64,000 nt of DNA from an uncultured virus (IMG/VR IMGVR_UViG_3300033076_001192) (lineage: Duplodnaviria; Heunggongvirae; Uroviricota; Caudoviricetes): IMG/VR virus record IMGVR_UViG_3300033076_001192, one strand, 5' to 3'. The notes beneath the pieces were generated by a model, which had not been told where the DNA came from, did not search any database, and saw only the letters and a program-made list of their open reading frames with translations. The translations under genes and the position numbers were made by a program. Shown here one piece after another: positions 13,482 to 45,006 of this stretch. How positions within the stretch are numbered: position 1 is the first letter of the stretch; the number at the start of each line of letters is the position of its first letter.

Positions 13482-13484
13482 ATT

Positions 13485-13522
13485 AGACAAGAAGATTAAA
13501 TTTTTCTTGTCTTTTTGTTTTT
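13485..13522 (+). terminator. intrinsic terminator followed by TATCTTTG promoter (13530-13537)
   Basis: agacaagaa/ttcttgtct hairpin plus T-tract. Confidence 0.65.
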
Positions 13523-13718
13523 TATTCTGTATCTTTGTTTTCTAATTTTTTAACGGCGAAATTATGAATATAAACAAAAGATTACGTTTGGATTCTATAT
13601 CAATAGAGTTATATGATAATGAAACAGATGAAGATTTCAGAGTTGATGTAAACACTTTAAATGATGAGGTTGTTTTAAATAAAGAAGAAGCGTTACAATT
13701 GTATAATTATTTAAAATT

Positions 13719-14345: not shown

Positions 14346-14425
14346 AATTAATATAAATTAAAGGGAATATTTGTTTATTCTCTTTTTTATTTTTATCTTT
14401 GTTGCAGAAAATTAAATTAAAAATT

Positions 14426-15187: not shown

Positions 15188-15188
15188 A

Positions 15189-16457: not shown

Positions 16458-16460
16458 GTT

Positions 16461-17132
16461 ATGAACTATAAAATAACAAAAGAACAGCATAAGTACTTAT
16501 GTACGTTACCTTTTAAACAATATTTATTTGGTAGTCAATTGCATGGTATTGCTAATGAAAATAGTGATTACGATTATGTAAGAGTTATTTCTGATGATTT
16601 TTATCTGTCTTTTACTTCTTTGGCGAAATATTTACCTAATATACATTCTTTTCAATATACTGAAGGTAAAGAGGTTCAATATGTGTGGATGACAGAATCT
16701 CAGTTTTGGCGGGGTTTTTTTAGTGGTGACGGTAATATGCTAGCTGATATCGTATTGTTAAGTGGTGAATTTGAAGACCCCTTACATTTAACTTACACTT
16801 ATAAAGTAATAAAAGGGTATATAGGTGTAACAAAAAGAGATTTAAAACTTCATAAGGATTGGGATAAAAAGATTTTTCACTCAACAAGAAGTCTTTATAT
16901 GGCAGAAACTTTAATGAGAAAAGAACTTCCAACTATAAAAGGTATTGTTGACTTATACAATCAAGACAGACTTTCTGTTGAAATACTGACACTAAAAGAA
17001 AAAGAATTAAGGGGAAAATTAAATGATATGCTGAACAAGGGAGAAATTAATTTATACCCTAATTTCAAAGAAGAAAACGAATTAGTTCAAATAATGACAA
17101 ACACAAACAATATAAGAGAGTTTAAATATTAG
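16461..17132 (+). CDS. Pol-beta family nucleotidyltransferase (RlaP-like)
   Basis: YLFGSQLHGIANENSDYD. Confidence 0.75.
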   Translation: MNYKITKEQHKYLCTLPFKQYLFGSQLHGIANENSDYDYVRVISDDFYLSFTSLAKYLPNIHSFQYTEGKEVQYVWMTESQFWRGFFSGDGNMLADIVLLSGEFEDPLHLTYTYKVIKGYIGVTKRDLKLHKDWDKKIFHSTRSLYMAETLMRKELPTIKGIVDLYNQDRLSVEILTLKEKELRGKLNDMLNKGEINLYPNFKEENELVQIMTNTNNIREFKY

Positions 17133-17135
17133 AAA

Positions 17136-18176
17136 ATGATTGATAATATATTATCAAGGGATTGCCCAACCTGCGGTAAAGAATTAAAATACGGTACAAA
17201 ATATAGTAGGTATAATGCTGATAAAGTGAGCACTCTTTGTGTTAAATGTGCTTGTGAAGTAAAACCTATAAGCCACGAGGCTTTTGAAAAGATATTACGA
17301 GAAAGTAATAAACACTTTAGAGAGGGGCTTTTCAAAATAATATCTGAATATAAAGGGCAATCTGTAAAATTAAGAGTGGAAACTAAATATGGTATATGTA
17401 ACACACACTCAAACAATCTATTAAAAGGCTTTATGCCGTCTATCACAACAGCAGAAAACAAGACAGAATATTTTAAAAAAATGCTTTTAGAGGTAAATGA
17501 AGATTATATGCATGGTAAATTTAGTATAGTTGGAGAGTACTTAGGAGGAAGTAAAATATTAGTTCAGGACAAATACTCTCAGCATTTAATATCTCCGCAT
17601 AGTCTATTAAGAGGTAAGAGTTTAACTATTAGAAGTTCTACAAATAAGAATTTATATACTATTTCTAAATTAAATGAAATACATAACTATAAATATACCT
17701 ATCCTGATATTGAGTATAGTAAAAGAGTGACAAATATAAAAATAAATTGCCCTCTTCATGGAGATTTTCAACAGTGCTTACATGACCACTACAGAGGAGA
17801 AGGTTGTAATGGGTGTGGAAGAATAGCCTCAACGGAGTTTATTAAAAAAGCTACAACAGGATGGTCAGTCGAGAGATGGAAAAGTCAAGCAAAGAAAAGT
17901 AAAAACTTTGACTCATTTAAGGTTTATATAATTAGATGTTGGAATGATGATGAAGAATTTTATAAAATTGGTAGAACTTTTTCTACAATTAAGAAGAGAT
18001 TTCCTAATAATCATACAATGCCATATAACTATGAAGTTATAGAAATTATAGTAGGAACACCAATAGAAATATACAGCTTAGAAAAAACACTTAAATTAAA
18101 GAATAAAGAGAATAAATACATACCTTTATTAAATTTTCACGGTAAAAATGAATGTTATGAAAAATACACAAAGTAA
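17136..18176 (+). CDS. putative homing endonuclease (paralog of 12402-13481)
   Basis: CPTC, INCPLHGDF...GCNGC, VYIIR...EEFYKIGRT...RF, HGKNECY. Confidence 0.78.
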   Translation: MIDNILSRDCPTCGKELKYGTKYSRYNADKVSTLCVKCACEVKPISHEAFEKILRESNKHFREGLFKIISEYKGQSVKLRVETKYGICNTHSNNLLKGFMPSITTAENKTEYFKKMLLEVNEDYMHGKFSIVGEYLGGSKILVQDKYSQHLISPHSLLRGKSLTIRSSTNKNLYTISKLNEIHNYKYTYPDIEYSKRVTNIKINCPLHGDFQQCLHDHYRGEGCNGCGRIASTEFIKKATTGWSVERWKSQAKKSKNFDSFKVYIIRCWNDDEEFYKIGRTFSTIKKRFPNNHTMPYNYEVIEIIVGTPIEIYSLEKTLKLKNKENKYIPLLNFHGKNECYEKYTK

Positions 18177-19080
18177 AATATATGCTTTTATAGGGATTTC
18201 CAATAGTGGAAAAAGTACACAAGCTCATTTAGAATGGTTGAAAGACCCTTTAAATACAGTAGTTATCTCAAGAGACAAGGTAAGAAATTTGCTTTGGAAC
18301 TACAATGACGAAGATGTTCATAAATACTATAAAAGAGACGATTTCAACAAATTAGAGAAAGAAATTTCAAAATATTGTGATACTCTTATATATGAAGCAA
18401 TAGAATCAAACAAGAAGATTATTTTAGATAATACTCATTTGGATTTTAAAAGGGATATTAAATCTTTGGAATATTGGAATGTACCTTTAGAACTTGTTTG
18501 GTTCGATATAACACTTAAAGAAGCTCTTACACGTAATATAGGACGTAATAGAAAAGTCGATGAAGAAATTATAACTAAGCAGTACAATAAGTATGTTACT
18601 TTAAGAAATAATTTTTATAATTATTCTTTTTCGCCGAAAATATTTAAACAAGATAGAAATTTACCACCCTGCGTAATCTACGATATTGATGGAACTATTG
18701 CTAAAATGAACGGTAGAAGTCCTTATGATTGGAAAAGGGTGGGCGAAGATTATATGATTCACAATGTTTGTGCAACAATTGACTGGATAGGAGACTTAGA
18801 CCTTAAAAACAGACCAAAAGTAATTATTTGTACAGGTAGAGATGGAGAAGCATTAGAAGATACTGAGCGTTGGTTAATTCAAAATAGTATTTACTATGAT
18901 GAAATATTTATCAGAAGTAAAGGAGATATGAGACCTGATTGGGTTGTTAAAGAAGAAATGTGGGAAACCATTTCAAAGAAAAACTACATTATTGGTATGT
19001 ATGATGACCGTTTACAAGTAGTTAGAAGAGCAAGGGCTTTAGGTCTAAAAGTATTTAATGTTGAATATAATAATTTTTAA
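18148..19080 (+). CDS. polynucleotide 5'-kinase/3'-phosphatase (T4 PseT-like)
   Basis: P-loop GISNSGKST, SRD, ILDNT; HAD domain DIDGT, TGR, YDDR. Confidence 0.9.
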   Translation: MNVMKNTQSKIYAFIGISNSGKSTQAHLEWLKDPLNTVVISRDKVRNLLWNYNDEDVHKYYKRDDFNKLEKEISKYCDTLIYEAIESNKKIILDNTHLDFKRDIKSLEYWNVPLELVWFDITLKEALTRNIGRNRKVDEEIITKQYNKYVTLRNNFYNYSFSPKIFKQDRNLPPCVIYDIDGTIAKMNGRSPYDWKRVGEDYMIHNVCATIDWIGDLDLKNRPKVIICTGRDGEALEDTERWLIQNSIYYDEIFIRSKGDMRPDWVVKEEMWETISKKNYIIGMYDDRLQVVRRARALGLKVFNVEYNNF

Positions 19081-23362: not shown

Positions 23363-24175
23363 ATGAAAACGAAACAAAACGTAGAAAAATTCAAAGTTAC
23401 ACCAGTAAATTTAGTAACAGGTTCAAAAGCACCTTCATTTGTTTTTGAATATCAAAAGAATAATAATGTAGATTTGAAAAGAATCGCAAAAGAAGAAGCT
23501 CAATCATCTTCGAGACTTAGTTCTTATGAAACTTGGGATTTTCAAGTAGAAAAGATTTAAAAGGTGACAGACGAGGAGTTTAATAAATTAAGTGGGTTTG
23601 AAAAAGAATGTAAAGTAGTTGCTTTTTACAATAAAGGGTGGAAACCTAATTGGGAAGATTCTAATGAGGTAAAATATATTCCTTATTTTTACATGGACAA
23701 CTTTCGTTCGTACTGCGTGTATTGCTACTACTCTTGTTCTCTTGTTTCTTCGCGCCTCTGTTTTAAAAGTGAAAAAGATGCTAAGGAAGCAGTAGAAAAC
23801 TATTTTGAAATTTTTAAACAATCAAGAACAGAATTTTAATATTATGAAAATATGAACGAAATATTTATAAAAACTAATTCAGAAAAAATTCAATTAGATG
23901 ATAAGTACTCATTACAACCAGACGGATTTAAAGGTTTGGTATTAGTTTTTGAAGAGCAAAGGGTACGCGAAAAAATTGATGTAAAAACAAAGGAAAAGAC
24001 AGGAGAGACAGAGCAATATACCTACACAGATAAATGGTATCATCCAAAACTATCTCAGTCTTTAAGTAAATACCTCCAATTAACAACATTAGAAGCAAAA
24101 ACAATTGAAGAATTAAAAGATATTGTTCTAAGAGTAGAGGATAAAATTAACAGCATAAAAGAAAATTACAAATAA
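23363..24175 (+). CDS. three small genes (23363-23560, 23564-23839, 23852-24175)
   Basis: ORF track; the middle gene has WKPNW..KYIPYF...SRLCFKS. Confidence 0.65.
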
Positions 24176-24190
24176 ATATGATAATAAACA

Positions 24191-24685
24191 ATGAACAAAC
24201 TAATATTAACAGTATTTTTAGCTATCGGGATGGTAGTAAATGCGCAAAACAGAGAATATTTCAAATTCAATGTAGAGGTAGACCCCTCGGCAACAGTTAA
24301 AGAAAAATCTCCTAATTTAAATTTCAGTTTAGAAGTTATATCTTACTGGAAATATGCGAAAGTATCTACTCAATTCTTACCTGGTTTAAAAGGAGGGTAT
24401 TTAGATTTTGGAGGAGGAGTTGGAATTACAACAACAGTAGATAGATTTGATAAAGTTAGAGTTTACGGTGGGGGTAGACTTGGACTTATAAAAAGAGGTT
24501 TTAATGAAAATAAAACTTTCACTTATCCTTTAGCAGGTTTAGAAGCAGGAGTGGATTATAATATAAATGATAATATTTCAATAGGTGTTAGAAGTACAGG
24601 AGACTATAGAAGTGACTTCAAGTATTCTGGAGCTAATCCTTCTATGAGATATTCTAGTTTTTTAAAAATAGGTTTTACATTATAA
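24191..24685 (+). CDS. outer-membrane beta-barrel protein with signal peptide
   Basis: signal peptide ending VNA-Q; alternating Gly/aromatic strands; AGLEAGVDY; C-terminal KIGFTL. Confidence 0.7.
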   Translation: MNKLILTVFLAIGMVVNAQNREYFKFNVEVDPSATVKEKSPNLNFSLEVISYWKYAKVSTQFLPGLKGGYLDFGGGVGITTTVDRFDKVRVYGGGRLGLIKRGFNENKTFTYPLAGLEAGVDYNINDNISIGVRSTGDYRSDFKYSGANPSMRYSSFLKIGFTL

Positions 24686-24744
24686 AATAAAAATTAATAG
24701 ATAACAAAGTATTTAATGTATTTGTATATTTCAAAACTTTATAT

Positions 24745-24752
24745 TACTTTTG
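24745..24752 (+). promoter_or_regulatory. Bacteroidota-type promoter (TACTTTTG; TTTG at 24721)
   Basis: consensus match upstream of the RNR leader. Confidence 0.65.
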
Positions 24753-24832
24753 TATCAGAGCTGTCCGAGATAGCTGTAGCATGCACAGTCCTTCTGAATA
24801 AGGAACATCGCCACAAACATATAACCACAATA

Positions 24833-24868
24833 TACCCTCGTCGCAATTTAAAATGACGAGGGTTTTTT
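24833..24868 (+). terminator. intrinsic terminator upstream of the RNR gene
   Basis: accctcgtc/gacgagggt stem plus T7 tract. Confidence 0.75.
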
Positions 24869-24916
24869 ATCTTAAATAATTAACAATATGAAAACAAAAA
24901 CAGGGATTTAAAAGCG

Positions 24917-27900
24917 ATGAACAAAGGAAAAGAGTTATTAAGTAATTTAAAATTTTATGAATCTTACTCAAAATATAGAGAAGATTTAGGAAGAAAAGAG
25001 ACGTGGGAAGAATCTGTTGATAGCGTAATGGAAATGCATTATAATAAGTTTAAGCACTTACCTGAACTATTACCATATTTAGACTCAGCAACACAATCTT
25101 ATAAAAATAAGCAAATTTTAGCTTCTCAAAGAAACTTACAATTTAGAGGAGATAGTATCAGTAAACATAATGTAAAACTTTTTAATTGCAGTTCTACATA
25201 TATTGACAGACCTGAAGTTTTTAAACAAATTATGTATATCTTACTAAATGGATGTGGTGCAGGTTATTCTGTTGAGAAGAGGTTTGTTAATAAATTACCA
25301 ACATTAAAAAAGAGAAAAGATGAGACTATAACTCATGTCATTGAAGATAGTGTAGAAGGTTGGTCATTAGCTGTAGATGCCTTAATGATGTCTTTTTTTA
25401 ATGGTAGCGAACAGATTAGATTTGATGGTTCTTTAGTCAGACCTGAAGGGGCTTATATTTCAGGGGGGTTTAAAGCTCCTGGGTTTGAACCTTTGAGAAG
25501 GTCTTTAGAGTTAATAGAAACATTATTAAACAGTAGAGTTAATAATGGGCAAGACAAACTATCAACTTTAGATGCACACGACATTGTATGTCACATAGCC
25601 GATGCTGTTTTAAGTGGGGGAATTAGACGCTCGGCTTTAATTTGTCTATTTGATAAAGACGATGAGCTAATGCTTAAATGTAAAACAGGCAGTTGGTTTT
25701 ATGATAACCCTCAAAGAGGGCGAGCGAATAACAGTATAAAACTATTAAAAACAGAACTTACAGAAGAGGAGTTCGAAACGTATAAAGAAAGCATTAAACA
25801 ATTTGGAGAACCTGGGGTTGTATTAGTAGATGATATAGATTTTTGTACAAACCCATGCGTAACAAAAGATACAATTGTCACTACAAGTACAGGGTCTTTT
25901 GCGGTAGAAAAATTAATCGGTAAGGCTTTCAATGCTGTTGTAGACGGAGTAGAGTATAAATCCTCCGCCGAAGGGTTTTGGTCTAATGGTGTTAAAGATG
26001 TATATTTGCTTGAAACAATTGAAGGATACACTTTAAAACTTACAGATAACCATAAATTAAAGACACTTAATGGGTGGAAAGAGTTAAAGGATATAACGCC
26101 TTCTGATAAAATTTTCATTAACAATCATTTAAACCTTAGTTGGGGGAATGTTACTACGGAAGATTTTAATAAAGGGTGGTTATTAGGAAATTTAATAGGA
26201 GATGGGACTTTTAATCCAAAAAATGAATCAGCGGTACTTAGGTATTGGGGTAAAGAGAATTACTTGGCAAAATTTGTCAAAGAAGTGTTGAATAAAGATT
26301 TTAGAGAAGGTAAGCCTTTTTCTGCTAATTCTGAAAAAGAAATTGTCTCTGTTGAAAGCAAGGCATTGGCAAAGTTAGCTAAAGAGTATGGGATACTTCC
26401 TAATGATAAGACTCCTAATAGTAAAATAGAGGAAACTTCTTCTTCTTTTTATGCAGGATTTTTATCAGGCATATTTGACGCAGATGGGTCTGTACAAGGA
26501 AGTTTAAAGAAAGGAGTGTCTATTAGATTGACTCAAAACAATATTGAAACATTAAGAACAGTGCAACGTATGCTCTTAAAGTTAGGCATCCGTTCCAAGT
26601 TGTATAAAAACAGAAGAGCTGAAGGATTTTACAGCTTACCTGATGGGAAAGGTAACAACAAGGAGTATTTTTGTAAGAGTGTACATGAATTAGTTATTAG
26701 TAGAGAATCTTTATTAGTTTTTAAAGAAAGAGTTGGCTTTAAATCAATTGCTAAACAAGACATTTTAGAGGAGTTATTGTCTAAGTTTACAAGAAAACTG
26801 TATAAAGACGACATGTTCTGTAGAATAAGTACTGTAGAGTACTTAGGTAAAGAAGAAGTGTTTGATGTAACCGTAGAAGATGTCCATGCATTTGACGCTA
26901 ACGGAATTGTAGCACATAATTGTGGAGAAATTGGATTTATACCTGTTAATCCTAAAAATGGGAAATCTTGTATTTCTTTTTGTAATTTAAATGAGATTAA
27001 TGGTGGTTTATGTAATACTCCTGCTAAATTTTATGAAGCTTGTAAAAACGCATCTATTTTAGGGACACTACAAGCATCATATACAAATATGCCATTTTTA
27101 GGAGTTGACACAGAAGAACTTATTAATGAAGAAGCTTTAATTGGAGTATCTATTACAGGTATTATGGATAATCCTAAAGTATTACTATCACCTGAAGTTT
27201 TAAGAAAAGGTGCTGAAATTGTGAATCAAGTTAACGAAGAGGTTGCTAAAATTATAGGTATTAATCCTGCGGCAAGAACAACAACAGTAAAACCTTCAGG
27301 AAACGCTTCTGTAATTTTAGGCACTTCTTCAGGAATTCATCCTGCACATTCAAAAAGATATTTTAGAATTATGCAAATGAATAAACAAACAGAAGTAGCT
27401 AAAGTATTAGCAGAAAACAATTCGGTTCTATTAGAAAACTCTGTTTGGAGTGCTTCAGGTAACGATTATGCTGTGTATTTACCGATTGAAGAAAATGAAG
27501 GTTCATTGTTTAAAGATGATTTATCAGATATTGATTTTGTAAAAGCAGTAGAAACAGTTTATCAAAATTGGGTATTGGTTGGAAACCATAAAGACAGAGG
27601 ATATTCAAACAGAGTAACACATAATGTATCTAATACAATCACTGTACAAGATTGGGATAATTTATTTGACCACATTTACAAGAATAAAGAATATTTCTGT
27701 GGGTTGTCTTTTATGCCAAGTTTAGGTGATAAAGTTTATAAGCAAAGTCCTTTTACAAAAGTGCTATCATTTGATGAAATAGTTTCTAAATATGGGACAG
27801 GTAGTTTATTTGCTTCAGGATTAATTGTAGATTCGTTACATGCATTTAACAATGATTTGTGGGACACTTGTCAAGCAGTAGTTGACAGAAACTTTGAATT

Positions 27901-28165
27901 GTCGGGCGATAGATATAAAGTACTGTTAAAGAAAGATGTTGTTAGAAGAATTAAAAAATTTGCAAAAAGTTATTTTAAAAATGACTTAGAAATGGCAGTC
28001 ACTTGTTTGAAAGATGTTCATTTATTCCATAAGTGGTCTATAATTACAAGGGATTACAAGAAAATTGATTTTACGGAGATTGACTTTAAACCTTCTTTTA
28101 TTGCTGTAGATACATTAGGAGCTGTTGCATGTAGCTCAGGGGCTTGTGAACTTACTTCAATTTAA
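24917..28165 (+). CDS. nrdJ: ribonucleotide reductase, probably class II (B12-dependent), containing an intein
   Basis: FNCS, GGIRRSALI, TNPC/CGEI, FCNLNEIN, TTVKPSG, C-terminal CSSGAC; no nrdB nearby. Confidence 0.82.
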   Translation: MNKGKELLSNLKFYESYSKYREDLGRKETWEESVDSVMEMHYNKFKHLPELLPYLDSATQSYKNKQILASQRNLQFRGDSISKHNVKLFNCSSTYIDRPEVFKQIMYILLNGCGAGYSVEKRFVNKLPTLKKRKDETITHVIEDSVEGWSLAVDALMMSFFNGSEQIRFDGSLVRPEGAYISGGFKAPGFEPLRRSLELIETLLNSRVNNGQDKLSTLDAHDIVCHIADAVLSGGIRRSALICLFDKDDELMLKCKTGSWFYDNPQRGRANNSIKLLKTELTEEEFETYKESIKQFGEPGVVLVDDIDFCTNPCVTKDTIVTTSTGSFAVEKLIGKAFNAVVDGVEYKSSAEGFWSNGVKDVYLLETIEGYTLKLTDNHKLKTLNGWKELKDITPSDKIFINNHLNLSWGNVTTEDFNKGWLLGNLIGDGTFNPKNESAVLRYWGKENYLAKFVKEVLNKDFREGKPFSANSEKEIVSVESKALAKLAKEYGILPNDKTPNSKIEETSSSFYAGFLSGIFDADGSVQGSLKKGVSIRLTQNNIETLRTVQRMLLKLGIRSKLYKNRRAEGFYSLPDGKGNNKEYFCKSVHELVISRESLLVFKERVGFKSIAKQDILEELLSKFTRKLYKDDMFCRISTVEYLGKEEVFDVTVEDVHAFDANGIVAHNCGEIGFIPVNPKNGKSCISFCNLNEINGGLCNTPAKFYEACKNASILGTLQASYTNMPFLGVDTEELINEEALIGVSITGIMDNPKVLLSPEVLRKGAEIVNQVNEEVAKIIGINPAARTTTVKPSGNASVILGTSSGIHPAHSKRYFRIMQMNKQTEVAKVLAENNSVLLENSVWSASGNDYAVYLPIEENEGSLFKDDLSDIDFVKAVETVYQNWVLVGNHKDRGYSNRVTHNVSNTITVQDWDNLFDHIYKNKEYFCGLSFMPSLGDKVYKQSPFTKVLSFDEIVSKYGTGSLFASGLIVDSLHAFNNDLWDTCQAVVDRNFELSGDRYKVLLKKDVVRRIKKFAKSYFKNDLEMAVTCLKDVHLFHKWSIITRDYKKIDFTEIDFKPSFIAVDTLGAVACSSGACELTSI
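25856..26920 (+). mobile_element. intein with LAGLIDADG homing endonuclease (355 aa)
   Basis: starts CVTKDT, has LTDNH, LLGNLIGDG, FLSGIFDADG, ends VFDVTV...IVAHN before Cys; splits the NPCGE motif. Confidence 0.93.
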
Positions 28166-38601: not shown

Positions 38602-38935
38602 TCTTTATATAATTTAAAAGCTCTTTCCAACAATCTCTTGTAGCCATAGCTTTATATGTGAATTTTTTATAACTGTGTTCATCATTTTTATACTCTTCGG
38701 CTAAATCTTCATAGTACTTTTGCCTTACTTGCCATAACCGAATTAGTTTACTCATATAGTTATTTTTAGCATTTTCACAATCTTGTAAAATTTCTTTTCT
38801 TCTTAATTCCTCCATCTTACCTCTAATGAGATTACTATTATCAGGAATTACATTTTGCTGATTAGTCCCATCAAAAGATTCAAATTTATCTTTATACTCT
38901 TGATTTAGTTTTAATGTTGAATTATTATTTTTCAT
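38594..38935 (-). CDS. hypothetical protein
   Basis: ORF track. Confidence 0.6.
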   Translation of the reverse strand: MKNNNSTLKLNQEYKDKFESFDGTNQQNVIPDNSNLIRGKMEELRRKEILQDCENAKNNYMSKLIRLWQVRQKYYEDLAEEYKNDEHSYKKFTYKAMATRDCWKELLNYIKNE

Positions 38936-39001
38936 AGTTTTTTATTTTATTTTGTAAATATATAAATATTTATTTAACTTACAAAAAGTTTTAACAAAAA
39001 A

Positions 39002-39190
39002 TTAAAAAGGGGTAATATTTTTCTTTTTAGGTAATAGTTCGTAGTAATCTTTTTTAATTTTTTCTTTTACAGCATCTCTGATAAATTGGGCTACGTTTAT
39101 ATTATAACTTGCTAATTTATTTAAAGTATTATCTTGTATTTCTGAAAACTTTATAGTGCGTGGTTTATTATATTTTATTGGTCTTGGCAT
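39002..39190 (-). CDS. small ribbon-helix-helix-like DNA-binding protein
   Basis: PRTIKFSE...L..L...NVAQFIRDAVKEKI. Confidence 0.55.
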   Translation of the reverse strand: MPRPIKYNKPRTIKFSEIQDNTLNKLASYNINVAQFIRDAVKEKIKKDYYELLPKKKNITPF

Positions 39191-39225
39191 AAATAAGTAT
39201 TACTTTTATAGCGCATAGCGATTAG

Positions 39226-39885
39226 TTATGCAATATATCTTTCAACAGAAGCGATAGTATCATGTATTGCTCCGCCATGAGAAAATAAAGCTATTTTTTC
39301 AACTTTAAAACCTCTATTAGCACCCATTGTATTTGAATGATAACCAAAAGTTATAACCTTCCCATTTGGTTTTAAAACATTCAACACTTCATCTTTTAGC
39401 TGTTTAAAAGGACTGCATTTAATACCTTTGTACATCTCCATACTTTTACGATATGCATAAGGTGGGTCAAGAAGTATAGTATCAAATTTATCTCCTTTCC
39501 ATGTTCTTAAAAACTCAAGAGCATCCATTCTATAATCAGCTAATGCTTCATCGTCTAAATCATTTCTAACTTCATCAATGTTTAACTTTGTTCTGCCAGC
39601 AAAAAGATTTAATGTTTTACCTTCGCAATTATTTTCAGTCCATTCACGTATGTTTTTAATTTTAAAAGTATATTTATGCAATGGACATTTAATGTAATCA
39701 AATTTTACTTTGTTTTCATTTACATATAAATTATATCTATGCAATAATGATTCTGTAATGTCAAAATTAAAAAATGGACTATTTTCAAATCCTTGATTTT
39801 TTAACCAATCTTTAGCACTTAATACATCGCATAACACAGGTTTTGTGCTATTGCTTGTTTCGGTGTTTTCTGAATGTTTAGTCAT
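39226..39885 (-). CDS. adenine/N4 DNA methyltransferase-like protein (cassette 1)
   Basis: LNLFAG, DALEF, ILLDPPY. Confidence 0.75.
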   Translation of the reverse strand: MTKHSENTETSNSTKPVLCDVLSAKDWLKNQGFENSPFFNFDITESLLHRYNLYVNENKVKFDYIKCPLHKYTFKIKNIREWTENNCEGKTLNLFAGRTKLNIDEVRNDLDDEALADYRMDALEFLRTWKGDKFDTILLDPPYAYRKSMEMYKGIKCSPFKQLKDEVLNVLKPNGKVITFGYHSNTMGANRGFKVEKIALFSHGGAIHDTIASVERYIA

Positions 39886-39964
39886 AATCTGTATTTTTTA
39901 GTGTTTAAATTAAAATTTGTTTTATTTTTGGTCGCAACAGACACAAAGCCTGAGAACGTTATGT
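39829..39964 (+). repeat. attC-like site 1 (136 bp)
   Basis: GCATAAC-acaggttttgtgctattgc...gcaacagacacaaagcctgagaac-GTTATGT. Confidence 0.8.
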
Positions 39965-39970
39965 TCAATG

Positions 39971-40525
39971 TTATTTTTTCAGAACGTTCTCGAATACAAT
40001 CACGTTTTTCAAAACATTACTGCATAAAAACACACTTGAAAAAGGTGGATTTAAACTTGGTTTTTGGTCATCATAACTTTTAAAGTAACTTATTCTTTTA
40101 TCAAAATACATTACTTCAATTTTGTTATCTCGGAACATTTCAAAACGCTTTTTGCTTTCAAATAATCCCACTACTCCAACAAGCATTGCAAATGGTCTTT
40201 CTAATTCAAATAACTTTTGAAAAACTTCTGCTTTAATTGAATAAGGCGGATTTGAAATAATATAATCAAATGATTTACATTTTTCTTTATCTGCATCAAA
40301 AAAATCAAATCCTTCCGATATATGGCTATTAGAAACAATATGTCCTTCTTTTTTCAATAATTTCACAAAATTACTTTCATTAGTATCAAAAGGACACCAT
40401 ATTTTACTATTTGGTTTTAGGTGTTTTAGCAATGGTTCAATTGCATAATTTGGCGTGTAAAATTCATCATTTGGATTTATTTCGCCTTGTTTTTCTGCTT
40501 TATTTGTAATTAAATCTAATTTCAT
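39971..40525 (-). CDS. adenine DNA methyltransferase-like protein (cassette 2)
   Basis: DEFYTP, IWCPFD, DFF, ISNPPYS. Confidence 0.75.
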   Translation of the reverse strand: MKLDLITNKAEKQGEINPNDEFYTPNYAIEPLLKHLKPNSKIWCPFDTNESNFVKLLKKEGHIVSNSHISEGFDFFDADKEKCKSFDYIISNPPYSIKAEVFQKLFELERPFAMLVGVVGLFESKKRFEMFRDNKIEVMYFDKRISYFKSYDDQKPSLNPPFSSVFLCSNVLKNVIVFENVLKK

Positions 40526-40558
40526 AATTGGAATTTACGGTTAAAAAAATAACACAAA

Positions 40559-40690
40559 ACATAACAGCAATTTGGCAAAATGGCGGGTTTAATGCTTAAT
40601 TGATGTTCTGTGCTTCTATTAATGTTTTGTTTTAAATTGAATGTTCTCGTTTCTTAATCCGCCACATCGCCAAGTTGCAGAACGTTATGT
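40559..40690 (+). repeat. attC-like site 2 (132 bp)
   Basis: ACATAAC-agcaatttggcaaaatggcgg...ccgccacatcgccaagttgcagaac-GTTATGT. Confidence 0.8.
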
Positions 40691-40707
40691 GATAGTTTCA
40701 AAGACGT

Positions 40708-41324
40708 TTATCGTTCATTCCACACCAATTCTAAAGCTGAAACTCCACCACGTTTAGAAGTTTCATCAATATCTAATTTTTCAATAACTTCAATCGCCTT
40801 TTTTACATTATCAAAATAATCCATTTCAACATTCAAAGGAGTGACGATTAAGTTTAAAAAGCCTTCCTCTTCTAAAACACCTCCTACAAAAAATTCACCA
40901 CTTGAAACTATGTAGCATTCAGGCTTTCCGTTTCTCCAATATTCTGTTTTTAAACATAAATATCCGTCAAATAAAAATAATCCAATAGGGCATTTACCTA
41001 ATTTTACATTTCTTTTCTGTTTTTTAATTAGCATTTCTTTTCTATTTTATCAATTAATAATTTATGTAATTCTGTTGGGGTTAATCCTTTAAACGAAACG
41101 CTTTTACACTTTCCATTTTTGCCTCCGATACAATCTCTAAAATCCATTCTCGTCTGGTTTCCTTCTTGAAATACAGATAATTTCAGTTCGTCAATAATAA
41201 AAGTTACTTTTTTAATACAATCTTCTTGGGTTACATCAATGAAGTTCAAGTACTTAGTTTCTTCATCTTTTTTGGTAATGGTTAATCTAATTAAATGTAT
41301 AGGTTTTGGCTCATATATTTTCAT
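40708..41324 (-). CDS. two hypothetical genes in cassette 3 (40708-41034, 41028-41324)
   Basis: ORF track. Confidence 0.65.
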
Positions 41325-41396
41325 AATAAATCTATTATTGTTTAATAAAGTGGTTAGCTTTATTGTTAATTTTTAACTTTATTGTAAGAAACCATC

Positions 41397-41527
41397 ACAT
41401 AACATCGGTTTTGCTCTATTGCGGTTTTAGGCTTATTCGATGTTCGGTTTGTATTTGTTAATTTTGTTTTTAATTCCAAGTTTTTGCTTACTTTTCCGCA
41501 ACAAAGCAAAGCCGAGAACCGTTATAA
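41397..41527 (+). repeat. attC-like site 3 (131 bp)
   Basis: ACATAAC-atcggttttgctctattgcgg...ccgcaacaaagcaaagccgagaacc-GTTATAA. Confidence 0.8.
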
Positions 41528-41533
41528 CTCATT

Positions 41534-41749
41534 TTACAGAACTGTGTGTCCTGCTTTTACAAGTCTATCTACTGATTCCATCATTTGTTGCCTTTGTTTA
41601 TTCTCATCGTCTTTTGTAAATTCATCAAAAAGTTCATAGCCTAATTTCCAAATTTTTTCTTCTTTCCATCCAAAAAATGTTTTTTTGCTAATTGCAAAAT
41701 ATTCATATCCATCCCATGTCGAGTACTTACCAAATTTATAAGTTGCCAT
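41534..41749 (-). CDS. hypothetical protein (cassette 4)
   Basis: ATG at 41749 (MATYKFG...). Confidence 0.6.
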   Translation of the reverse strand: MATYKFGKYSTWDGYEYFAISKKTFFGWKEEKIWKLGYELFDEFTKDDENKQRQQMMESVDRLVKAGHTVL

Positions 41750-41762
41750 AATAAAAAACGAG

Positions 41763-41895
41763 TTATAACAGTGGTTTTGCTCAATGGCTGTATTTGGCAA
41801 AATTTCAGCACTGTTTTATGTTTGTAAAATTTGTTTTTAATTAAATAATTTAGACTTGCTTTTCAGCCACTAAGCAAAGCCACAGGGCGTTATCA
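41763..41895 (+). repeat. attC-like site 4 (133 bp)
   Basis: TTATAAC-agtggttttgctcaatggctg...cagccactaagcaaagccacagggc-GTTATCA. Confidence 0.8.
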
Positions 41896-42120
41896 CTCAG
41901 CTTGCGGAACAGTATAGACCGCATTGAAAGTGTTTTTAGTAATACCATAATGAAACATTAATCTAAACCACAAAAAACAATACATTGTGCTTTTTTTATG
42001 TTTCATATTCCAAGTATCAATTCTTTGTGGGAAAACGTAACAAAAATTTACAACGTGAAATGTCACTTGTTTTTTGAAGTTTTTAAATAAAGTTGGTTTT
42101 TCAAAACTAATATTTTTCAT
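41893..42120 (-). CDS. hypothetical protein (cassette 5)
   Basis: ATG at 42120; stop codon lies within the core site. Confidence 0.55.
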   Translation of the reverse strand: MKNISFEKPTLFKNFKKQVTFHVVNFCYVFPQRIDTWNMKHKKSTMYCFLWFRLMFHYGITKNTFNAVYTVPQAE

Positions 42121-42145
42121 AATTTGTGATTTTAAAAAGCCGAAG

Positions 42146-42277
42146 TGATAACAGCGGTTACACAATATTGCCACTTCGGGAGTTATTTAATATTGTTTTT
42201 GTACTTGTTTTGTTAGTTGTTTAATCAAATGTTTTCGCTTACTTTTGGCAACATCGTGTAGCCACGGAACGTTAGTG
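42146..42277 (+). repeat. attC-like site 5 (132 bp)
   Basis: TGATAAC-agcggttacacaatattgcca...tggcaacatcgtgtagccacggaac-GTTAGTG. Confidence 0.8.
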
Positions 42278-42481
42278 GCTATTTTTAGACAACCACCCAT
42301 TTCTTTGTTTCTCATTTTTTACAACAAGATTTTTTCGCTCGTACATTTTTCTGCATTTTTGACAAACAACAGCACCAACAATAACTGGTTGACCATTATC
42401 GTAGTCCATATATTCAATTGAAGATTTATTATCATTATACCATTCAATGCTTATTTCGTGACCACAACTTGCTATTATCAT
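42272..42481 (-). CDS. small Zn-ribbon-like protein (cassette 6)
   Basis: SCGH...CQKC. Confidence 0.6.
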   Translation of the reverse strand: MIIASCGHEISIEWYNDNKSSIEYMDYDNGQPVIVGAVVCQKCRKMYERKNLVVKNEKQRNGWLSKNSH

Positions 42482-42494
42482 AATATAAAACAGC

Positions 42495-42625
42495 CACTAA
42501 CATTATATTGGCAAAAGAAAGGCTGACGTTCTAAAACCAACAGAAGTACACTTATTTAACTTTTGTAATTGACATCGGCAGTAGCACTTCTAATCCCTGC
42601 CTTTGCCAATGATTCAACGTTATAA
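42495..42625 (+). repeat. attC-like site 6 (131 bp)
   Basis: CACTAAC-attatattggcaaaag...ctttgccaatgattcaac-GTTATAA. Confidence 0.72.
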
Positions 42626-42643
42626 GACATTTTAGGACGACCA

Positions 42644-43060
42644 CTACCAATCAGATGGACTTGATGATGAACTATCATAAGAACTTCCTGAATCATAACT
42701 TGACGAATCACTACTACTTGACCAGCTACTGCCACTATCATAAGAACTACTATCATTGTGGCTCGAATGGTGGCTATTGTTATCATAATTAGAATGACTT
42801 AAACCACTATCATAATTAGATGAATTATCGTTGTGGTTTGAATGAATACTACTATTATCGTCATTACTATTTCCTATCCAAAATGGACTTAATGGATTTA
42901 ACGGACTTAAAAGATTTGTAGGACTTAATAAGTCGTTATCATTGTTGTTTTGCGAATTATTACTTGAATAACCGCCACCACTTACACTATTTGAGTAAGT
43001 TCTTTTTTGTTCTTTTTTCGGCTCTTGTTTTTTACCGAATAATCTTTTTAACCAATTCAT
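42644..43060 (-). CDS. Ser/Asn/Asp-rich low-complexity protein (cassette 7)
   Basis: MNWLKRLFGKK...; SSSYDSGSS repeats. Confidence 0.7.
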   Translation of the reverse strand: MNWLKRLFGKKQEPKKEQKRTYSNSVSGGGYSSNNSQNNNDNDLLSPTNLLSPLNPLSPFWIGNSNDDNSSIHSNHNDNSSNYDSGLSHSNYDNNSHHSSHNDSSSYDSGSSWSSSSDSSSYDSGSSYDSSSSSPSDW

Positions 43061-43080
43061 TGTTTTTAAATTAGATAATA

Positions 43081-43126
43081 GTCTTGTATTTAATCGGCAA
43101 CAAGACAAAGCCACAGAACGTTATAG
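43081..43126 (+). repeat. truncated attC-like site 7 (right arm only)
   Basis: ggcaacaagacaaagccacagaac-GTTATAG present; expected left arm TTATAAC absent. Confidence 0.65.
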
Positions 43127-43130
43127 GCAA

Positions 43131-43352
43131 TTATAAATCAGTCCTATATTTAAGCATTGCATCTTTAAAACCTTTGTCATAAGCATTATCCATATCTTTT
43201 TCTAAATAATTGCCTATAACACCAGTTTGTTGCAATTGTAAGGCTTGGTATTCTATCAGTAATGTTTCTAATTCAATGCTTTCTCCATCACAATCAACAA
43301 TGTATTGAGTATCAAATATTCCTTTATGTTTTAAAAATTCTTTAGCATTCAT
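43131..43352 (-). CDS. hypothetical protein (cassette 8), largely encoded inside attC8
   Basis: ORF reads through the attC left arm (LQQTGVIGN). Confidence 0.6.
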   Translation of the reverse strand: MNAKEFLKHKGIFDTQYIVDCDGESIELETLLIEYQALQLQQTGVIGNYLEKDMDNAYDKGFKDAMLKYRTDL

Positions 43353-43416
43353 AATTTTTGTAATGTTTTAGGTTGATTAATCTTTGCAACTGCAACAAGC
43401 TGAGGGAACGTTATGC
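43214..43416 (+). repeat. attC-like site 8 (203 bp, expanded loop)
   Basis: CTATAAC-accagtttgttgcaattgtaa...ttgcaactgcaacaagctgagggaac-GTTATGC. Confidence 0.75.
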
Positions 43417-43428
43417 CTAATGGGAAGT

Positions 43429-43998
43429 TCACGAAGAAACTTCGGCTTTGAATTGTCGTTTCAGTTCCGCTTTAAAAATATTGCAGACATCCTTTGTAGT
43501 ATGTGATACGTAAATTCCTTTTGAAAATTTATCTTTAAATTCATCCCAAATGTGTTGGAAATTGTTGTCGCCAAAATTATAGCCGTGATAATTACAATAC
43601 AGGTTAATTCTACGTTTCAAATAATCTAAGTCACGTTCTTTTTTAGGCACGTATATTATCAATTCTGAAAATTCTTTTCTGAAAAGTTCTATACCTTCAT
43701 CAGAAATAAAATAGTAATTCAAACCTCGTTGTTCTTGCTTAACAGCTAATCCTTTTTCTACCAAGTCATTCAGAGCCGAATCATTTTCAGTTTGGTAATA
43801 GTTTCGGTAAAATTCTTTTGGTAAGGTTTTATCTTTTTTTCGGTGCGACATCATCGCATTATAGAACGGAATACCTAAAGAGTGTGCAATTCTATCCATT
43901 TGAATTTTTGTTAGCGTGTATGGTATATTCGCACTAGGCATAACACTCGTTTGACTCAATGCCTTGTTATCTGCTGTATTCAATTTTCCTTTATCCAT
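43429..43998 (-). CDS. hypothetical protein (cassette 9)
   Basis: HSLG...YRNYY...LVEKGLA; starts inside attC9. Confidence 0.65.
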   Translation of the reverse strand: MDKGKLNTADNKALSQTSVMPSANIPYTLTKIQMDRIAHSLGIPFYNAMMSHRKKDKTLPKEFYRNYYQTENDSALNDLVEKGLAVKQEQRGLNYYFISDEGIELFRKEFSELIIYVPKKERDLDYLKRRINLYCNYHGYNFGDNNFQHIWDEFKDKFSKGIYVSHTTKDVCNIFKAELKRQFKAEVSS

Positions 43999-44067
43999 GA
44001 TGTTTTTTATTAATTTGGAAATTTATCTTTCAAACTCGGCACTAAGCCAAGTGAGGGAACGTTAGAT
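43938..44067 (+). repeat. attC-like site 9 (130 bp)
   Basis: GCATAAC-actcgtttgactcaatgcc...ggcactaagccaagtgagggaac-GTTAGAT. Confidence 0.8.
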
Positions 44068-44073
44068 GTAACG

Positions 44074-44385
44074 CTACGATTCGTACTTCAATTTAAGTTC
44101 CTCGTATTTTTTACGTTCTCTTTCCGCTTTCTTTTGAGCAGCAACTAACTTATTTTGTTCATCTGCAACCCTTATATTGTATTCTGTATCATTTTCTAAT
44201 CTCATGCCCATCACAATCAGTTCTGCTCCATCGTGATAATAATCCATTTTAAAATGTACAGAAGTCCATCCTTCTTTTTCTAACTTATCTTTTTGTTCCA
44301 AAATAAGTTTTGCGGCTTTCTCAAAAGAAGTCATAAACATATCTGTATTGATATTTACTTGACTTAAAATTCGTTTTCTTTCCAT
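44074..44385 (-). CDS. hypothetical protein (cassette 10)
   Basis: RLENDTEY...RERKKYEELKLKYE. Confidence 0.65.
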   Translation of the reverse strand: MERKRILSQVNINTDMFMTSFEKAAKLILEQKDKLEKEGWTSVHFKMDYYHDGAELIVMGMRLENDTEYNIRVADEQNKLVAAQKKAERERKKYEELKLKYES

Positions 44386-44440
44386 ATTTTTTGTTATTAA
44401 TCCACACTGCTAGTAACTCGTTAATAGTTATATTATCAAT

Positions 44441-44984
44441 CTAACGATATAAATTTATTTTAGCATTTCTCTTATCTTCATTAGTAGGTAATTTATTACA
44501 AACTCGATGCTCTGCTGTATAATTACCATCTTTTTCACACCAACCATCATATCTTTGTGATTTTTTATCTTCTTCTCTTTGTCTAAAGAATTTACAATTA
44601 TCACATCTAACTAGATTTAATTGATAAGCCATAATTTTTAATTTATTTCTCTTTATATATTTAGTTTTAATATTACAAACCACTCACTAACTCATCAAAT
44701 CTCTCTTTTGAAACTATAATTTCTTGTCTTAAAATTTTGTTTTCAATAAGTTCAGAAAGTTTTTCTTGTGTTTTAGTTTGCATTACTACAACTTGTTCAA
44801 GTATTTTGTAAATATCTCCACCCTGTAATAAATGTTCAATACAATACCTAAAAACTATATTATTTTGATATAACTCCAACCCATTATCAAATTTAGAAAG
44901 CAGTGCAGTAATACTACTGTTAACATAATCCATATTCAATGTTGAGCTCTGTGATGCAATTGTGTTTTGTTTTGAGTTTTTCAT
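44441..44984 (-). CDS. two small genes (44441-about 44632, CxxC; 44673-44984)
   Basis: ORF track. Confidence 0.55.
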
Positions 44985-45006
44985 AATGTTTAACGGTTTT
45001 CTTCTG

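What the first reader, a model, noticed from the sequence alone, without database searches (positions are those of the whole stretch)
39225..44445. Integron-like cassette array carried by a phage, with no integrase in view
Seen: nine intergenic imperfect palindromes, seven of them 130-136 bp, all running nnnTAACA...GTTAnn. Each intact cassette begins with a GTT core whose 14-17 nt extension is the near-perfect reverse complement of that same cassette's other end. Examples: GTTATGTGATAGTTTC/GAAACCATCACATAAC, GTTATAACTCATTTT/AAAACGAGTTATAAC, GTTAGTGGCTATTTT/AAAACAGCCACTAAC, GTTATAGGCAATTAT/ATAATTGCCTATAAC. The two ends of any one attC usually do not match. Established: this is the signature of integron cassettes that circularise and recombine at G|TT. 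Inference: the phage acquires and shuffles accessory genes as cassettes, using a host IntI or a recombinase outside the window. Integron arrays are usually described in bacterial chromosomes and plasmids.
Basis: partly seen in the sequence, partly recalled or inferred. Interest (0 to 1): 0.92.

Follow-up and report, generated by a model that had tools for sequence, protein, structure and literature searches.

The report
Integron-like gene cassettes in a phage
A Flavobacterium-type phage carries nine small gene cassettes, each ending in a folded recombination site of the kind that its host bacteria keep next to a recombinase, so phages without that enzyme can apparently swap accessory genes the way integrons do.

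Summary
Window 39225-44064 holds nine one-strand-specific elements (TAACA...CGTTA, mostly 124-130 nt) that bound nine cassettes of minus-strand genes; two are DNA methyltransferases. Each cassette's two ends are complementary; the two flanks of one element are not.

The elements form a structured family with strong covariation. They occur in at least 143 viral and 141 bacterial stretches, nearly all Bacteroidota. In Flavobacterium chromosomes, arrays lie directly downstream of a Xer-like tyrosine recombinase found in 115 of 201 genomes. It lacks the IntI-specific insertion, so this is integron-like, not a canonical integron.

Mobility is shown in isolates. Lytic Flavobacterium phages differ by two exact cassette deletions, one replacement and one cassette moved to the first array position, all at GTTA. 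None of seven complete phage genomes has a tyrosine recombinase, including a 143-kb relative of this phage with 26 elements. Other phage contigs encode their own.

Phage cassettes are mirror images of bacterial ones: genes are antisense to site polarity (75 of 93 against 5 of 60).

Phage attC clusters without an integrase were published in 2023, but not this site family, recombinase type or orientation rule. The recombinase's role, and host supply in trans, are inferred.

The parts
39225..39228 (+). First GTTA core, the origin of the array. No element lies to its left, so it is an attI-like or secondary insertion site. Its TTA is also the stop codon (TAA on the - strand) of the first cassette gene.
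   Evidence: The flank after it matches the left flank of E1 at 8 of 16 positions (8 of the first 10; my reading of the strings printed).
39832..39961 (+). E1, a 130-nt element. It contains the ATG (39885, 53 nt from its left end) and the first 18 codons of the cassette-1 methyltransferase.
   Evidence: 83 bits. About 91% identical over exactly this span to Flavobacterium siphophages; similarity stops at TAAC and GTTA.
40562..40687 (+). E2, a 126-nt element.
   Evidence: 98.8 bits.
41400..41524 (+). E3, a 125-nt element.
   Evidence: 90.5 bits. Copies 85-91% identical occur in other viral contigs.
41766..41892 (+). E4, a 127-nt element.
   Evidence: 83.4 bits. Copies about 90% identical occur in other viral contigs.
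42149..42274 (+). E5, a 126-nt element.
   Evidence: 75.8 bits.
42498..42622 (+). E6, a 125-nt variant element with a shifted stem (ATTGGCAAA/TTTGCCAAT).
   Evidence: 46.1 bits, E = 3e-8.
43056..43123 (+). E7, right half of an element only. Its left arm is overlain by the N-terminal coding region of the 138/156-aa ORF, so it is probably an inactive site.
   Evidence: family D2; hit at 42990-43129, 17.8 bits, E = 0.067.
43217..43413 (+). E8, a 197-nt element whose long central part encodes most of a 73-aa ORF.
   Evidence: I10; 45.9 bits. A similar 194-nt element lies in phage morran (L002 1938-2131).
43941..44064 (+). E9, a 124-nt element and the last of the array. It contains the start (43998) of the 189-aa ORF.
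   Evidence: 79.9 bits.
39226..39885 (-). Cassette 1 gene: DNA methyltransferase, 219 aa.
   Evidence: PHROG 11619, E = 3e-41.
39971..40525 (-). Cassette 2 gene: DNA methyltransferase, 184 aa.
   Evidence: PHROG 799, E = 7e-32; Pfam EcoRI_methylase, 29 bits. 49% identical to a cassette gene of phage morran.
40708..41324 (-). Cassette 3: two overlapping ORFs (108 and 98 aa) of no known family.
41534..41749 (-). Cassette 4 ORF (71 aa), no family. Its end pair GTTATAACTCATTTT / AAAACGAGTTATAAC recurs around two different ORFs in phage morran.
41893..42120 (-). Cassette 5 ORF (75 aa), no family.
42272..42481 (-). Cassette 6 ORF (69 aa), no family.
42644..43114 (-). Cassette 7 ORF (138 aa from ATG, 156 aa from GTG), low-complexity S/N-rich; weak PHROG matches only.
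43131..43352 (-). Cassette 8 ORF (73 aa), lying largely inside E8.
43429..43998 (-). Cassette 9 ORF (189 aa); PHROG 13561, function unknown.
39002..39190 (-). 62-aa gene (PHROG 25647; weak DUF6290 match) directly beside the array origin. Homologues lie beside or within arrays in five other viral contigs.

Best explanation
Window 39225-44064 is an integrase-less cassette array of an integron-like system native to Bacteroidota and their phages.

Each cassette runs from the TTA after one GTTA core to the G of the next. It holds a short flank, one or two genes on the - strand, a flank complementary to the first, and an element of about 126 nt. The element is TAAC, 1 nt, a 10-bp stem with a conserved T.G, an AT-rich centre, the matching stem, 5 nt, GTTA.

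Shown:
- the anatomy of the array;
- covariation in the stems of the elements;
- complementary cassette ends;
- exact cassette loss, replacement and move-to-first-position at GTTA between isolates of related-site phages;
- adjacency of the same site family to a Xer-like tyrosine recombinase in Flavobacterium chromosomes and in some phages.

Inferred:
- that recombinase binds the folded single strand, with the inner stem and the TAAC/GTTA-plus-flank stem serving as its two arms;
- it exchanges strands within GTTA;
- it excises cassettes as circles and reinserts them, mostly at the first site;
- in this phage the enzyme comes in trans from the host;
- the element, which lies upstream of the gene in the direction of transcription, supplies 5' expression signals (E1 supplies the start codon);
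- the cargo, methyltransferases and small unknown genes, serves the arms race with host defences.
For: Family and structure.
- Nine sites, found by a model built from bacterial-array elements, with no other hit in 64 kb.
- Covariation: 12 of 14 predicted pairs carry compensatory changes in 19 phage elements. In 95 distinct bacterial elements 94.7% of cells are paired against 71.2% in shuffles (0 of 500 shuffles reach this) and 25-51% when partners are slid. T.G is kept in 82 of 95.

Cassette signature.
- In the window, cognate ends match at 8-13 of 16 against a mean of 5.6 for non-cognate pairs.
- In general, at least 9 of 12 positions match in 41 of 60 bacterial, 55 of 107 viral and 11 of 19 isolate cassettes. 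For the two flanks of one element the figures are 0, 2 and 0.

Mobility.
- mumin6-1 and mumin6-3 differ by a 506-bp unit (ORF plus element) bounded by ...AACGTTA| on both sides.
- lillamy9-1 and lillamy9-7 differ by one 439-bp cassette excised precisely and inserted at the first GTTATAA site of the array, one 470-bp cassette deletion and one replacement.
- E1 is about 91% identical in Flavobacterium siphophages, with similarity ending at TAAC and GTTA.

Recombinase.
- Arrays of at least 16 elements (F. sedimenticola) and at least 4 elements (Flavobacterium sp. BFFFF1) start 0.6-0.7 kb downstream of a 345-350-aa tyrosine recombinase.
- Homologues at E <= 1e-45 occur in 115 of 201 Flavobacterium genomes.
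- Of 12 such loci, 6 show a co-oriented element within 1.5 kb; 3 more are cut by a contig end.
- Four phage contigs with 4-33 elements each encode a 266-289-aa homologue at the array edge. In one of them the first cassette starts 30 nt from the gene.

Trans supply.
- No PF00589 match in 7 of 7 complete genomes: filifjonk, morran, mumin6-1, mumin6-3, lillamy9-1, lillamy9-7 and the 143-kb relative G205 with 26 elements.
- No Y1 transposase and no serine recombinase in 5 of 5.
- No recombinase among the window's ORFs.
- The only protein shared by the window and mumin6-1 is a methyltransferase.
Against:
- Folding energies are barely better than shuffles (z +0.5 to -3.0). The long hairpin is the minimum-energy fold for only 4 of 7 elements on either strand.
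- The associated recombinase lacks the insertion that the integron literature treats as the key to single-strand recombination (listing). Whether the substrate is single- or double-stranded is therefore open.
- The same element types (E1, E3, E4, about 90% identical) sit beside unrelated ORFs on both sides in different phages. Movement of an ORF-plus-site unit does not by itself explain this.
- Phage and bacterial cassettes have opposite gene orientation. No window cassette protein matched any bacterial locus fetched. Exchange with host arrays is not shown.
- The hosts of the isolates were not examined for the recombinase.
- The one relative of this phage (G205) has its arrays elsewhere and none beside its prim-pol gene. 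The window's own array therefore has no positional comparison.
Confidence: 0.75

Rival explanations
1. The elements are canonical integron attC sites, served by a canonical integron integrase (IntI) of the host or of an unseen part of the phage.
For: - They have AAC...GTT inverse cores, are imperfect palindromes of attC-like length, and show the cassette-end signature.
- The recombinase's N-terminal domain is PF13495 and TIGR02249 scores 183-202 bits.
Against: - The recombinases found beside these arrays score below the IntI cut-off (183 and 202 against 265). They align to IntI4 with 24 residues where IntI4 has 67, so the IntI insertion is missing.
- 0 of 101 Flavobacterium genomes have a TIGR02249 match over the cut-off. 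No positive control rang in that search.
- The spacers are 1 and 5 nt, not a symmetric bubble.
- An IntegronFinder/HattCI survey of 10,705 phage genomes names no Flavobacterium phage in its text or the held supplement.
Confidence: 0.1
2. The elements are regulatory hairpins (promoter, terminator or translation-start modules). Like the PeSL motifs of T4-type phages, they shuffle genes through homologous or illegitimate recombination between repeated copies, with no dedicated recombinase.
For: - They lie between genes.
- E1 carries a start codon used by at least three different ORFs.
- Element types are conserved at about 90% across unrelated phages while the neighbouring genes differ. Recombination inside repeats would produce this.
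- One replacement event has variant bases in the spacer.
- PeSL papers: PMC2839356 and PMC4122927 (search listing only).
Against: - The junctions share only 5-7 bases (GTTAT or AACGTTA), too few for homologous recombination.
- Complementary cassette ends have no reason to exist under this model.
- Site polarity is uniform, and arrays abut a tyrosine recombinase in bacteria and in four phage contigs.
- The excised cassette re-entered exactly at the first core site.
Confidence: 0.08
3. The elements are MITE- or PATE-like non-autonomous transposons, moved by a transposase such as an IS200/IS605 Y1 enzyme that acts on hairpins.
For: - They are short, structured repeats shared between Flavobacterium genomes and their phages. 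A census of MITEs reports such sharing for Bacteroidota (PMC11602168, passages).
- The precise ends fall at a short conserved word.
Against: - No Y1 transposase in 5 of 5 phage genomes.
- The elements form head-to-tail arrays of one polarity with one gene between copies, not scattered insertions.
- What moves is gene plus element, not the element alone.
- The gene adjacent to arrays is a tyrosine recombinase.
Confidence: 0.03

Closest known systems
Clusters of attC sites lacking an integrase (CALINs) in virulent phages. Qi et al. 2023, PMC9892861; abstract, section 3.4 and the held supplement read.
   Same: - Arrays of hairpin recombination sites and small genes in lytic phages with no integrase.
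- Methyltransferases as cargo, including in a phage of Polaribacter, another member of Flavobacteriaceae.
- The proposed use of a bacterial integrase.
   Different: - That survey found 17 clusters in 10,705 genomes, each with at least two sites. No Flavobacterium phage is named.
- Here there are 9 sites in the window and up to 33 per phage contig, in at least 143 viral stretches.
- The site geometry is distinct and the associated recombinase lacks the IntI insertion.
- Genes are antisense to site polarity.
- Cassette movement is seen directly between isolates.
Sedentary chromosomal integrons (IntI plus arrays of similar attC sites, for example in Vibrio). Recalled from general knowledge, and from the papers listed.
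   Same: - A tyrosine recombinase sits beside a long array of similar structured sites.
- There is usually one ORF per cassette.
- Crossover lies in GTT.
- A cassette's inverse core matches its own start.
- Reinsertion occurs at the first position.
   Different: - The recombinase is Xer-like and has no IntI insertion.
- It is co-directional with the cassettes in Flavobacterium.
- The spacers are 1 and 5 nt, with a conserved T.G.
- The complementary extension is 11-16 nt, not 6-7 nt.
- There is a phage branch with inverted genes.
PeSL mobile regulatory cassettes of T4-type phages (PMC2839356, PMC4122927; search listing only; details recalled).
   Same: Repeated intergenic stem-loop modules flank small accessory genes in the plastic regions of lytic phages. 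They supply expression signals and are linked to gene insertion, deletion and replacement.
   Different: - PeSLs are thought to act through homologous recombination between copies (recalled).
- Here the junctions are exact at a 5-7-nt core and cassette ends are complementary.
- The same sites lie beside a tyrosine recombinase.
pdif modules of Acinetobacter plasmids, moved by the host XerC/XerD (recalled; no call).
   Same: Discrete gene modules bounded by sites for a Xer-type recombinase that is supplied in trans by the host.
   Different: - pdif sites are 28-bp duplex sites in alternating orientation.
- Here the sites are hairpins of about 126 nt with a single polarity, and the recombinase is a dedicated paralogue beside an array.

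Membership tests
Integron (canonical, as IntegronFinder defines it) | Sites are imperfect palindromes with inverse cores ...AAC and GTT..., and crossover lies in GTT | tested here: met
   TAACA and CGTTA are invariant in 19 of 19 phage elements. AAC/GTT are kept in 94 of 95 bacterial elements. The junctions of four natural events lie within GTTAT or AACGTTA.
Integron (canonical, as IntegronFinder defines it) | Cassette unit is ORF(s) plus one site, and the site's inverse-core side is complementary to the start of the same cassette | tested here: met
   Window: 8-13 of 16 against a mean of 5.6. In general.
Integron (canonical, as IntegronFinder defines it) | Integrase of the IntI clade carrying the IntI-specific insertion (I2 helix; intI_Cterm profile) | tested here: not met
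   There is none in the window. The recombinases beside arrays of this site family score 183 and 202 bits against TIGR02249 (cut-off 265), in two pieces. Against IntI4 (2a3v) they have 24 residues where IntI4 has 67. Their best family is NF040815, XerA-type.
Integron (canonical, as IntegronFinder defines it) | Site recognised by the curated attC covariance model or by HattCI | not testable with these tools
   Neither program nor model is on hand, and Rfam has no match. Indirect evidence: a published IntegronFinder/HattCI screen of phage genomes names no Flavobacterium phage.
Integron (canonical, as IntegronFinder defines it) | R and L boxes separated by a roughly symmetric unpaired spacer, with extrahelical bases that mark the recombining strand (feature recalled) | tested here: inconclusive
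   There are two paired boxes. The spacer is 1 nt on one side and 5 nt on the other, and there is a conserved T.G (A.C on the other strand) at stem position 5. The site is asymmetric and strand-specific, but its layout is not the canonical one.
Integron (canonical, as IntegronFinder defines it) | Cassette genes mostly sense to the site polarity, upstream of their own site | tested here: not met
   Window: 6 of 6 antisense. Viral contigs: 75 antisense, 2 sense, 16 ambiguous. Bacterial loci: 51 sense, 5 antisense, 4 ambiguous.
CALIN (cluster of at least two attC sites with no integrase nearby) | At least two sites in an array and no integrase gene close by | tested here: met
   There are nine sites and no recombinase in the 64-kb window. 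This holds only if the sites are accepted as attC-type.
MITE / PATE | Scattered copies with terminal inverted repeats, moving alone by means of a transposase | tested here: not met
   The copies form ordered arrays of one polarity. The unit that moves is gene plus element. No Y1 transposase was found.

The most novel reading that the evidence does not exclude
Bacteroidota and their phages run a second integron system that does not depend on IntI. A Xer-type recombinase without the I2 insertion recombines folded sites of about 126 nt. Phages keep their own mirror-image pool of cassettes, in which the site precedes the gene and supplies its expression signals, even the start codon. Lytic phages that lack the enzyme shuffle this pool with the host's recombinase. 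The result would be a shared, fast-moving accessory genome for methyltransferases and other counter-defence genes across unrelated phage families.
Probability: 0.45. Interest if true: 0.9.

Novelty: new variant of a known kind. Interest (0 to 1): 0.8.

Why it matters
Integrons are the textbook device for capturing genes, and they are thought to rest on one innovation of IntI, the I2 helix.

Here the same logic appears with a recombinase that lacks that insertion: structured sites, circularisable cassettes and reinsertion at the first position. A homologue occurs in more than half of the Flavobacterium genomes sampled. Published integron surveys report almost nothing in this phylum.

The phage side is wider than the few cases in print. 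There are dozens of cassettes per genome, the same site types occur in siphophages of 38 kb and in phages of 130-170 kb, and cassette moves are visible between isolates from one host strain.

This offers three things:
- a tractable system of cultured lytic phages and hosts in which to test whether a host recombinase edits phage genomes during infection;
- a way to find phage accessory and counter-defence genes by their flanking sites;
- a test of whether single-strand recombination evolved more than once among tyrosine recombinases.

Tried and rejected
- Rfam scan of the window: 0 families. tRNA scan: none.
- No whole genome is held for the window.
- Thermodynamic folding of both strands did not separate the elements from shuffles and did not pick out a strand.
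- A search for relatives with the prim-pol protein gave one contig (G205). It has no array beside that gene. Its arrays share element types with the window but no cassette genes, so a position-by-position comparison of the window's own array was not possible.
- Five contigs that share the small gene at 39002-39190 lack the prim-pol gene, so they are not close relatives.
- Window cassette proteins against all fetched loci gave only a methyltransferase homologue in phage morran and an N-terminal leader match. None matched a bacterial locus.
- A small tree of 25 recombinases put the 16 bacterial array-associated ones together (support 81/92) and the phage ones in two or three separate groups. The base is unresolved and the two Xer paralogues sit on long branches, so no origin is claimed.
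- The TIGR02249 search of 101 genomes had no positive control.
- Literature searches for this system found no description. The library lacks most subscription journals, so this is no proof of absence.

Full report
WHAT THE WINDOW IS

It is part of a phage genome with 28.6% G+C. It encodes a DNA polymerase, helicase, prim-pol, RNA ligase, polynucleotide kinase, a Thg1-type enzyme, a ribonucleotide reductase with an intein, and four very large virion proteins. It has no tRNA and no Rfam match. From about 32.7 kb to the end, all genes are on the - strand.

THE OBSERVATION

Reading 38800-45000 shows nine elements on the + strand that begin TAACA and end CGTTA. Their GTTA cores lie at 39958, 40684, 41521, 41889, 42271, 42619, 43120, 43410 and 44061. 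An extra GTTA at 39225 has no element to its left.

- Seven elements are 124-130 nt from TAAC to GTTA.
- E8 is 197 nt and encodes most of a 73-aa ORF in its centre.
- E7 has only its right arm.

A simple scan for the layout TAAC, 1 nt, 10-bp stem, matching stem, 5 nt, GTTA finds seven of them at 9-10 of 10 pairs on the + strand and none on the - strand. Two weaker hits elsewhere have a different geometry.

The 16 nt after each GTTA are complementary to the 16 nt before the next TAAC: 13, 12, 11, 8, 10, 12 and 12 matches. The two flanks of one element match at 3-7. The 65 non-cognate pairs average 5.6, with a maximum of 9 (p = 1.2e-5).

The array is therefore nine cassettes, 39226-44061, each ending in its element.

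IS IT A STRUCTURED FAMILY?

Folding energies are unimpressive (z from +0.5 to -3.0). The evidence is comparative.

- Nineteen elements from the window and four Flavobacterium phage loci align with TAACA and CGTTA invariant. RNAalifold predicts 14 pairs, 12 of them with compensatory changes, and a T.G kept in 17 of 19.
- A model built from these elements (R1) finds 97 sites in 26 bacterial loci, always with one polarity per locus.
- On those sites 94.7% of cells pair, against 71.2% in shuffles (0 of 500 reach it) and 25-51% when partners are slid. T.G is kept in 82 of 95.
- A second model (R2), built only from the bacterial sites, recovers exactly the nine window elements and nothing else at E <= 1.

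WHERE ELSE IT OCCURS

E1 (39832-39961) is about 91% identical, over exactly its own length, to a site in the Flavobacterium siphophages of Nilsson et al. 2020. At least 28 listed records match it. In a three-way alignment the similarity starts at TAAC and stops at GTTA. Those phages have their own arrays. The paper that describes them does not mention palindromes or cassettes (word search).

A two-arm pattern finds at least 143 stretches in IMG/VR. It finds at least 141 stretches in bacterial genomes. Nearly all of these are titled Bacteroidota: Flavobacterium, Chitinophagaceae, Pedobacter, Chryseobacterium and others. Six listed records bear other labels. Five of these are MAGs, and the sixth is a 795-bp contig of an isolate assembly. 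The cassette-end signature is general.

PROOF OF MOBILITY

- mumin6-1 and mumin6-3 are identical around one 506-bp difference. It is an ORF plus one element, bounded on both sides by ...AACGTTA|.
- lillamy9-1 and lillamy9-7 differ in three ways:
  - A 439-bp cassette is cut out cleanly from mid-array. It is inserted at the GTTATAA site that opens the array.
  - A clean 470-bp cassette is deleted.
  - One cassette is replaced by another between the same flanks.
- All junctions lie within GTTAT.
- The unit is always flank, ORF (antisense), flank, TAAC...GTTA. This fixes the crossover at the GTTA end.

Excision followed by re-entry at the first position is what integrons do.

THE RECOMBINASE

None is in the window. 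No tyrosine recombinase is in any of seven complete genomes: six isolates and G205. G205 is a 143-kb contig whose prim-pol is 90% identical to the window's and which carries 26 elements. Five of these genomes also lack Y1 transposases and serine recombinases. The window and mumin6-1 share no protein except a methyltransferase.

In bacteria the picture differs.

- In F. sedimenticola an array of at least 16 elements ends 0.65 kb from a 345-aa tyrosine recombinase.
- In Flavobacterium sp. BFFFF1 a 350-aa homologue is followed by an attI-like junction. Cassettes then follow whose genes are sense to the sites.
- Homologues at E <= 1e-45 occur in 115 of 201 Flavobacterium genomes, often at contig ends.
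- Of 12 loci, 6 show a co-oriented element within 1.5 kb and 3 more are truncated by a contig end.

The protein has an unassigned 75-aa N-terminus, PF13495 and an uninterrupted PF00589. Its best family is NF040815, XerA-type (209 and 228 bits; cut-off 220). It scores below the integron-integrase cut-off (183 and 202 against 265), in two pieces. Against IntI4 it has 24 residues where IntI4 has 67. It therefore lacks the IntI-specific insertion.

Four phage contigs with 4-33 elements encode shorter homologues (266-289 aa, ORF lengths) at the array edge. In one, the first cassette begins 30 nt from the gene. In a small tree the phage enzymes lie outside the bacterial clade.

A MIRROR-IMAGE RULE

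Relative to site polarity, cassette genes are:

- bacterial loci: 51 sense, 5 antisense, 4 ambiguous;
- viral contigs: 2 sense, 75 antisense, 16 ambiguous;
- isolates: 13 antisense, 2 ambiguous;
- window: 6 of 6 antisense.

In phages the site thus lies upstream of its gene. E1-type elements even supply the ATG, 53 nt from the element's left end, for different ORFs. This holds in the window, in filifjonk and morran, and in contig G206.

WHAT IS KNOWN

Qi et al. 2023 reported 17 attC clusters without an integrase among 10,705 phage genomes. One is in a virulent Polaribacter phage with two methyltransferases. They showed that IntI1 can use such sites. No Flavobacterium phage is named.

IntegronFinder 2 reports, for Bacteroidetes, only In0 elements and one complete integron, in Salinibacter (passage). 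Cury et al. held that recombinases near attC sites without the IntI domain are not IntI (passage). A MITE census notes repeats shared by Flavobacterium and its phages, without the word attC.

I found no description of this recombinase-and-site system.

VERDICT

The finding is real and the integron-like reading is supported. It is not a canonical integron, because the recombinase test fails. It is also not the first phage array of this general kind. It is a distinct and widespread variant with a phage-specific orientation rule and direct evidence of cassette movement. The role of the Xer-like enzyme, its supply by the host and a single-stranded substrate remain inferences.

Noticed in passing
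window 39002-39190 (-): A 62-aa gene (PHROG 25647; weak DUF6290 match) sits directly beside the array origin. Homologues (50-56% identity) lie next to or inside arrays in five other viral contigs that are not close relatives (L020, L034, L048, L065, L066). It may be an accessory factor or a conserved anchor for the first insertion site.
   Followed up: partly
G001:C12 266718-284797; G004:C36 100545-104008; 115 of 201 Flavobacterium genomes: Flavobacterium chromosomes carry a platform made of a Xer-like tyrosine recombinase, an attI-like junction and arrays of near-identical 126-nt sites with sense cassettes. Many recombinase genes sit at contig ends, as expected next to repeats. I did not find it described as an integron in the literature searched.
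   Followed up: partly
window 39832-39961; L001 4001-4130; L002 4003-4132; L315 about 2668-2797: The E1-type element carries an ATG at the same offset (53 nt). The ATG opens different downstream ORFs, so the site acts as a portable start and leader module.
   Followed up: partly
window 43217-43413; L002 1938-2131: A long form of the element (194-197 nt) has a central part that encodes most of a small ORF (73 aa in the window).
   Followed up: no
window 12402-19080 (+): An RNA-repair set (Thg1-type guanylyltransferase 14399-15187, RNA ligase 15189-16457, polynucleotide kinase 18148-19080) is interleaved with two large endonuclease-like ORFs (12402-13481, 17136-18176; PHROG 681).
   Followed up: no
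window 24917-28165 (+): The ribonucleotide reductase gene is interrupted by an intein with a LAGLIDADG endonuclease domain (Pfam).
   Followed up: no
window 549-1343 and 9321-10052 (+): Two further DNA methyltransferases lie outside the array. The first is 35-40% identical to methyltransferase genes that lie within the leftward small-gene region of mumin6-1, the region that carries its elements.
   Followed up: partly
L151, L167, L186, L190, L197, L220 (genome contigs): Elements also occur on contigs labelled Saccharibacteria, Gammaproteobacteria, Bifidobacteriaceae, Ignavibacteriaceae and Pseudidiomarina. Five are MAG contigs and one is a 795-bp contig of an isolate assembly. The recombinase on L197 groups with phage ones, which suggests misbinned phage DNA.
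   Followed up: no
G205 (IMG/VR contig, 143 kb): 134821-143427 continuing at 1-828; 23388-25073: The relative of the window phage has about 23 elements in one array that runs across the contig ends, and 3 more of opposite polarity. It shares E1, E3, E4 and E5 types (87-91%) with the window but none of the cassette genes.
   Followed up: partly
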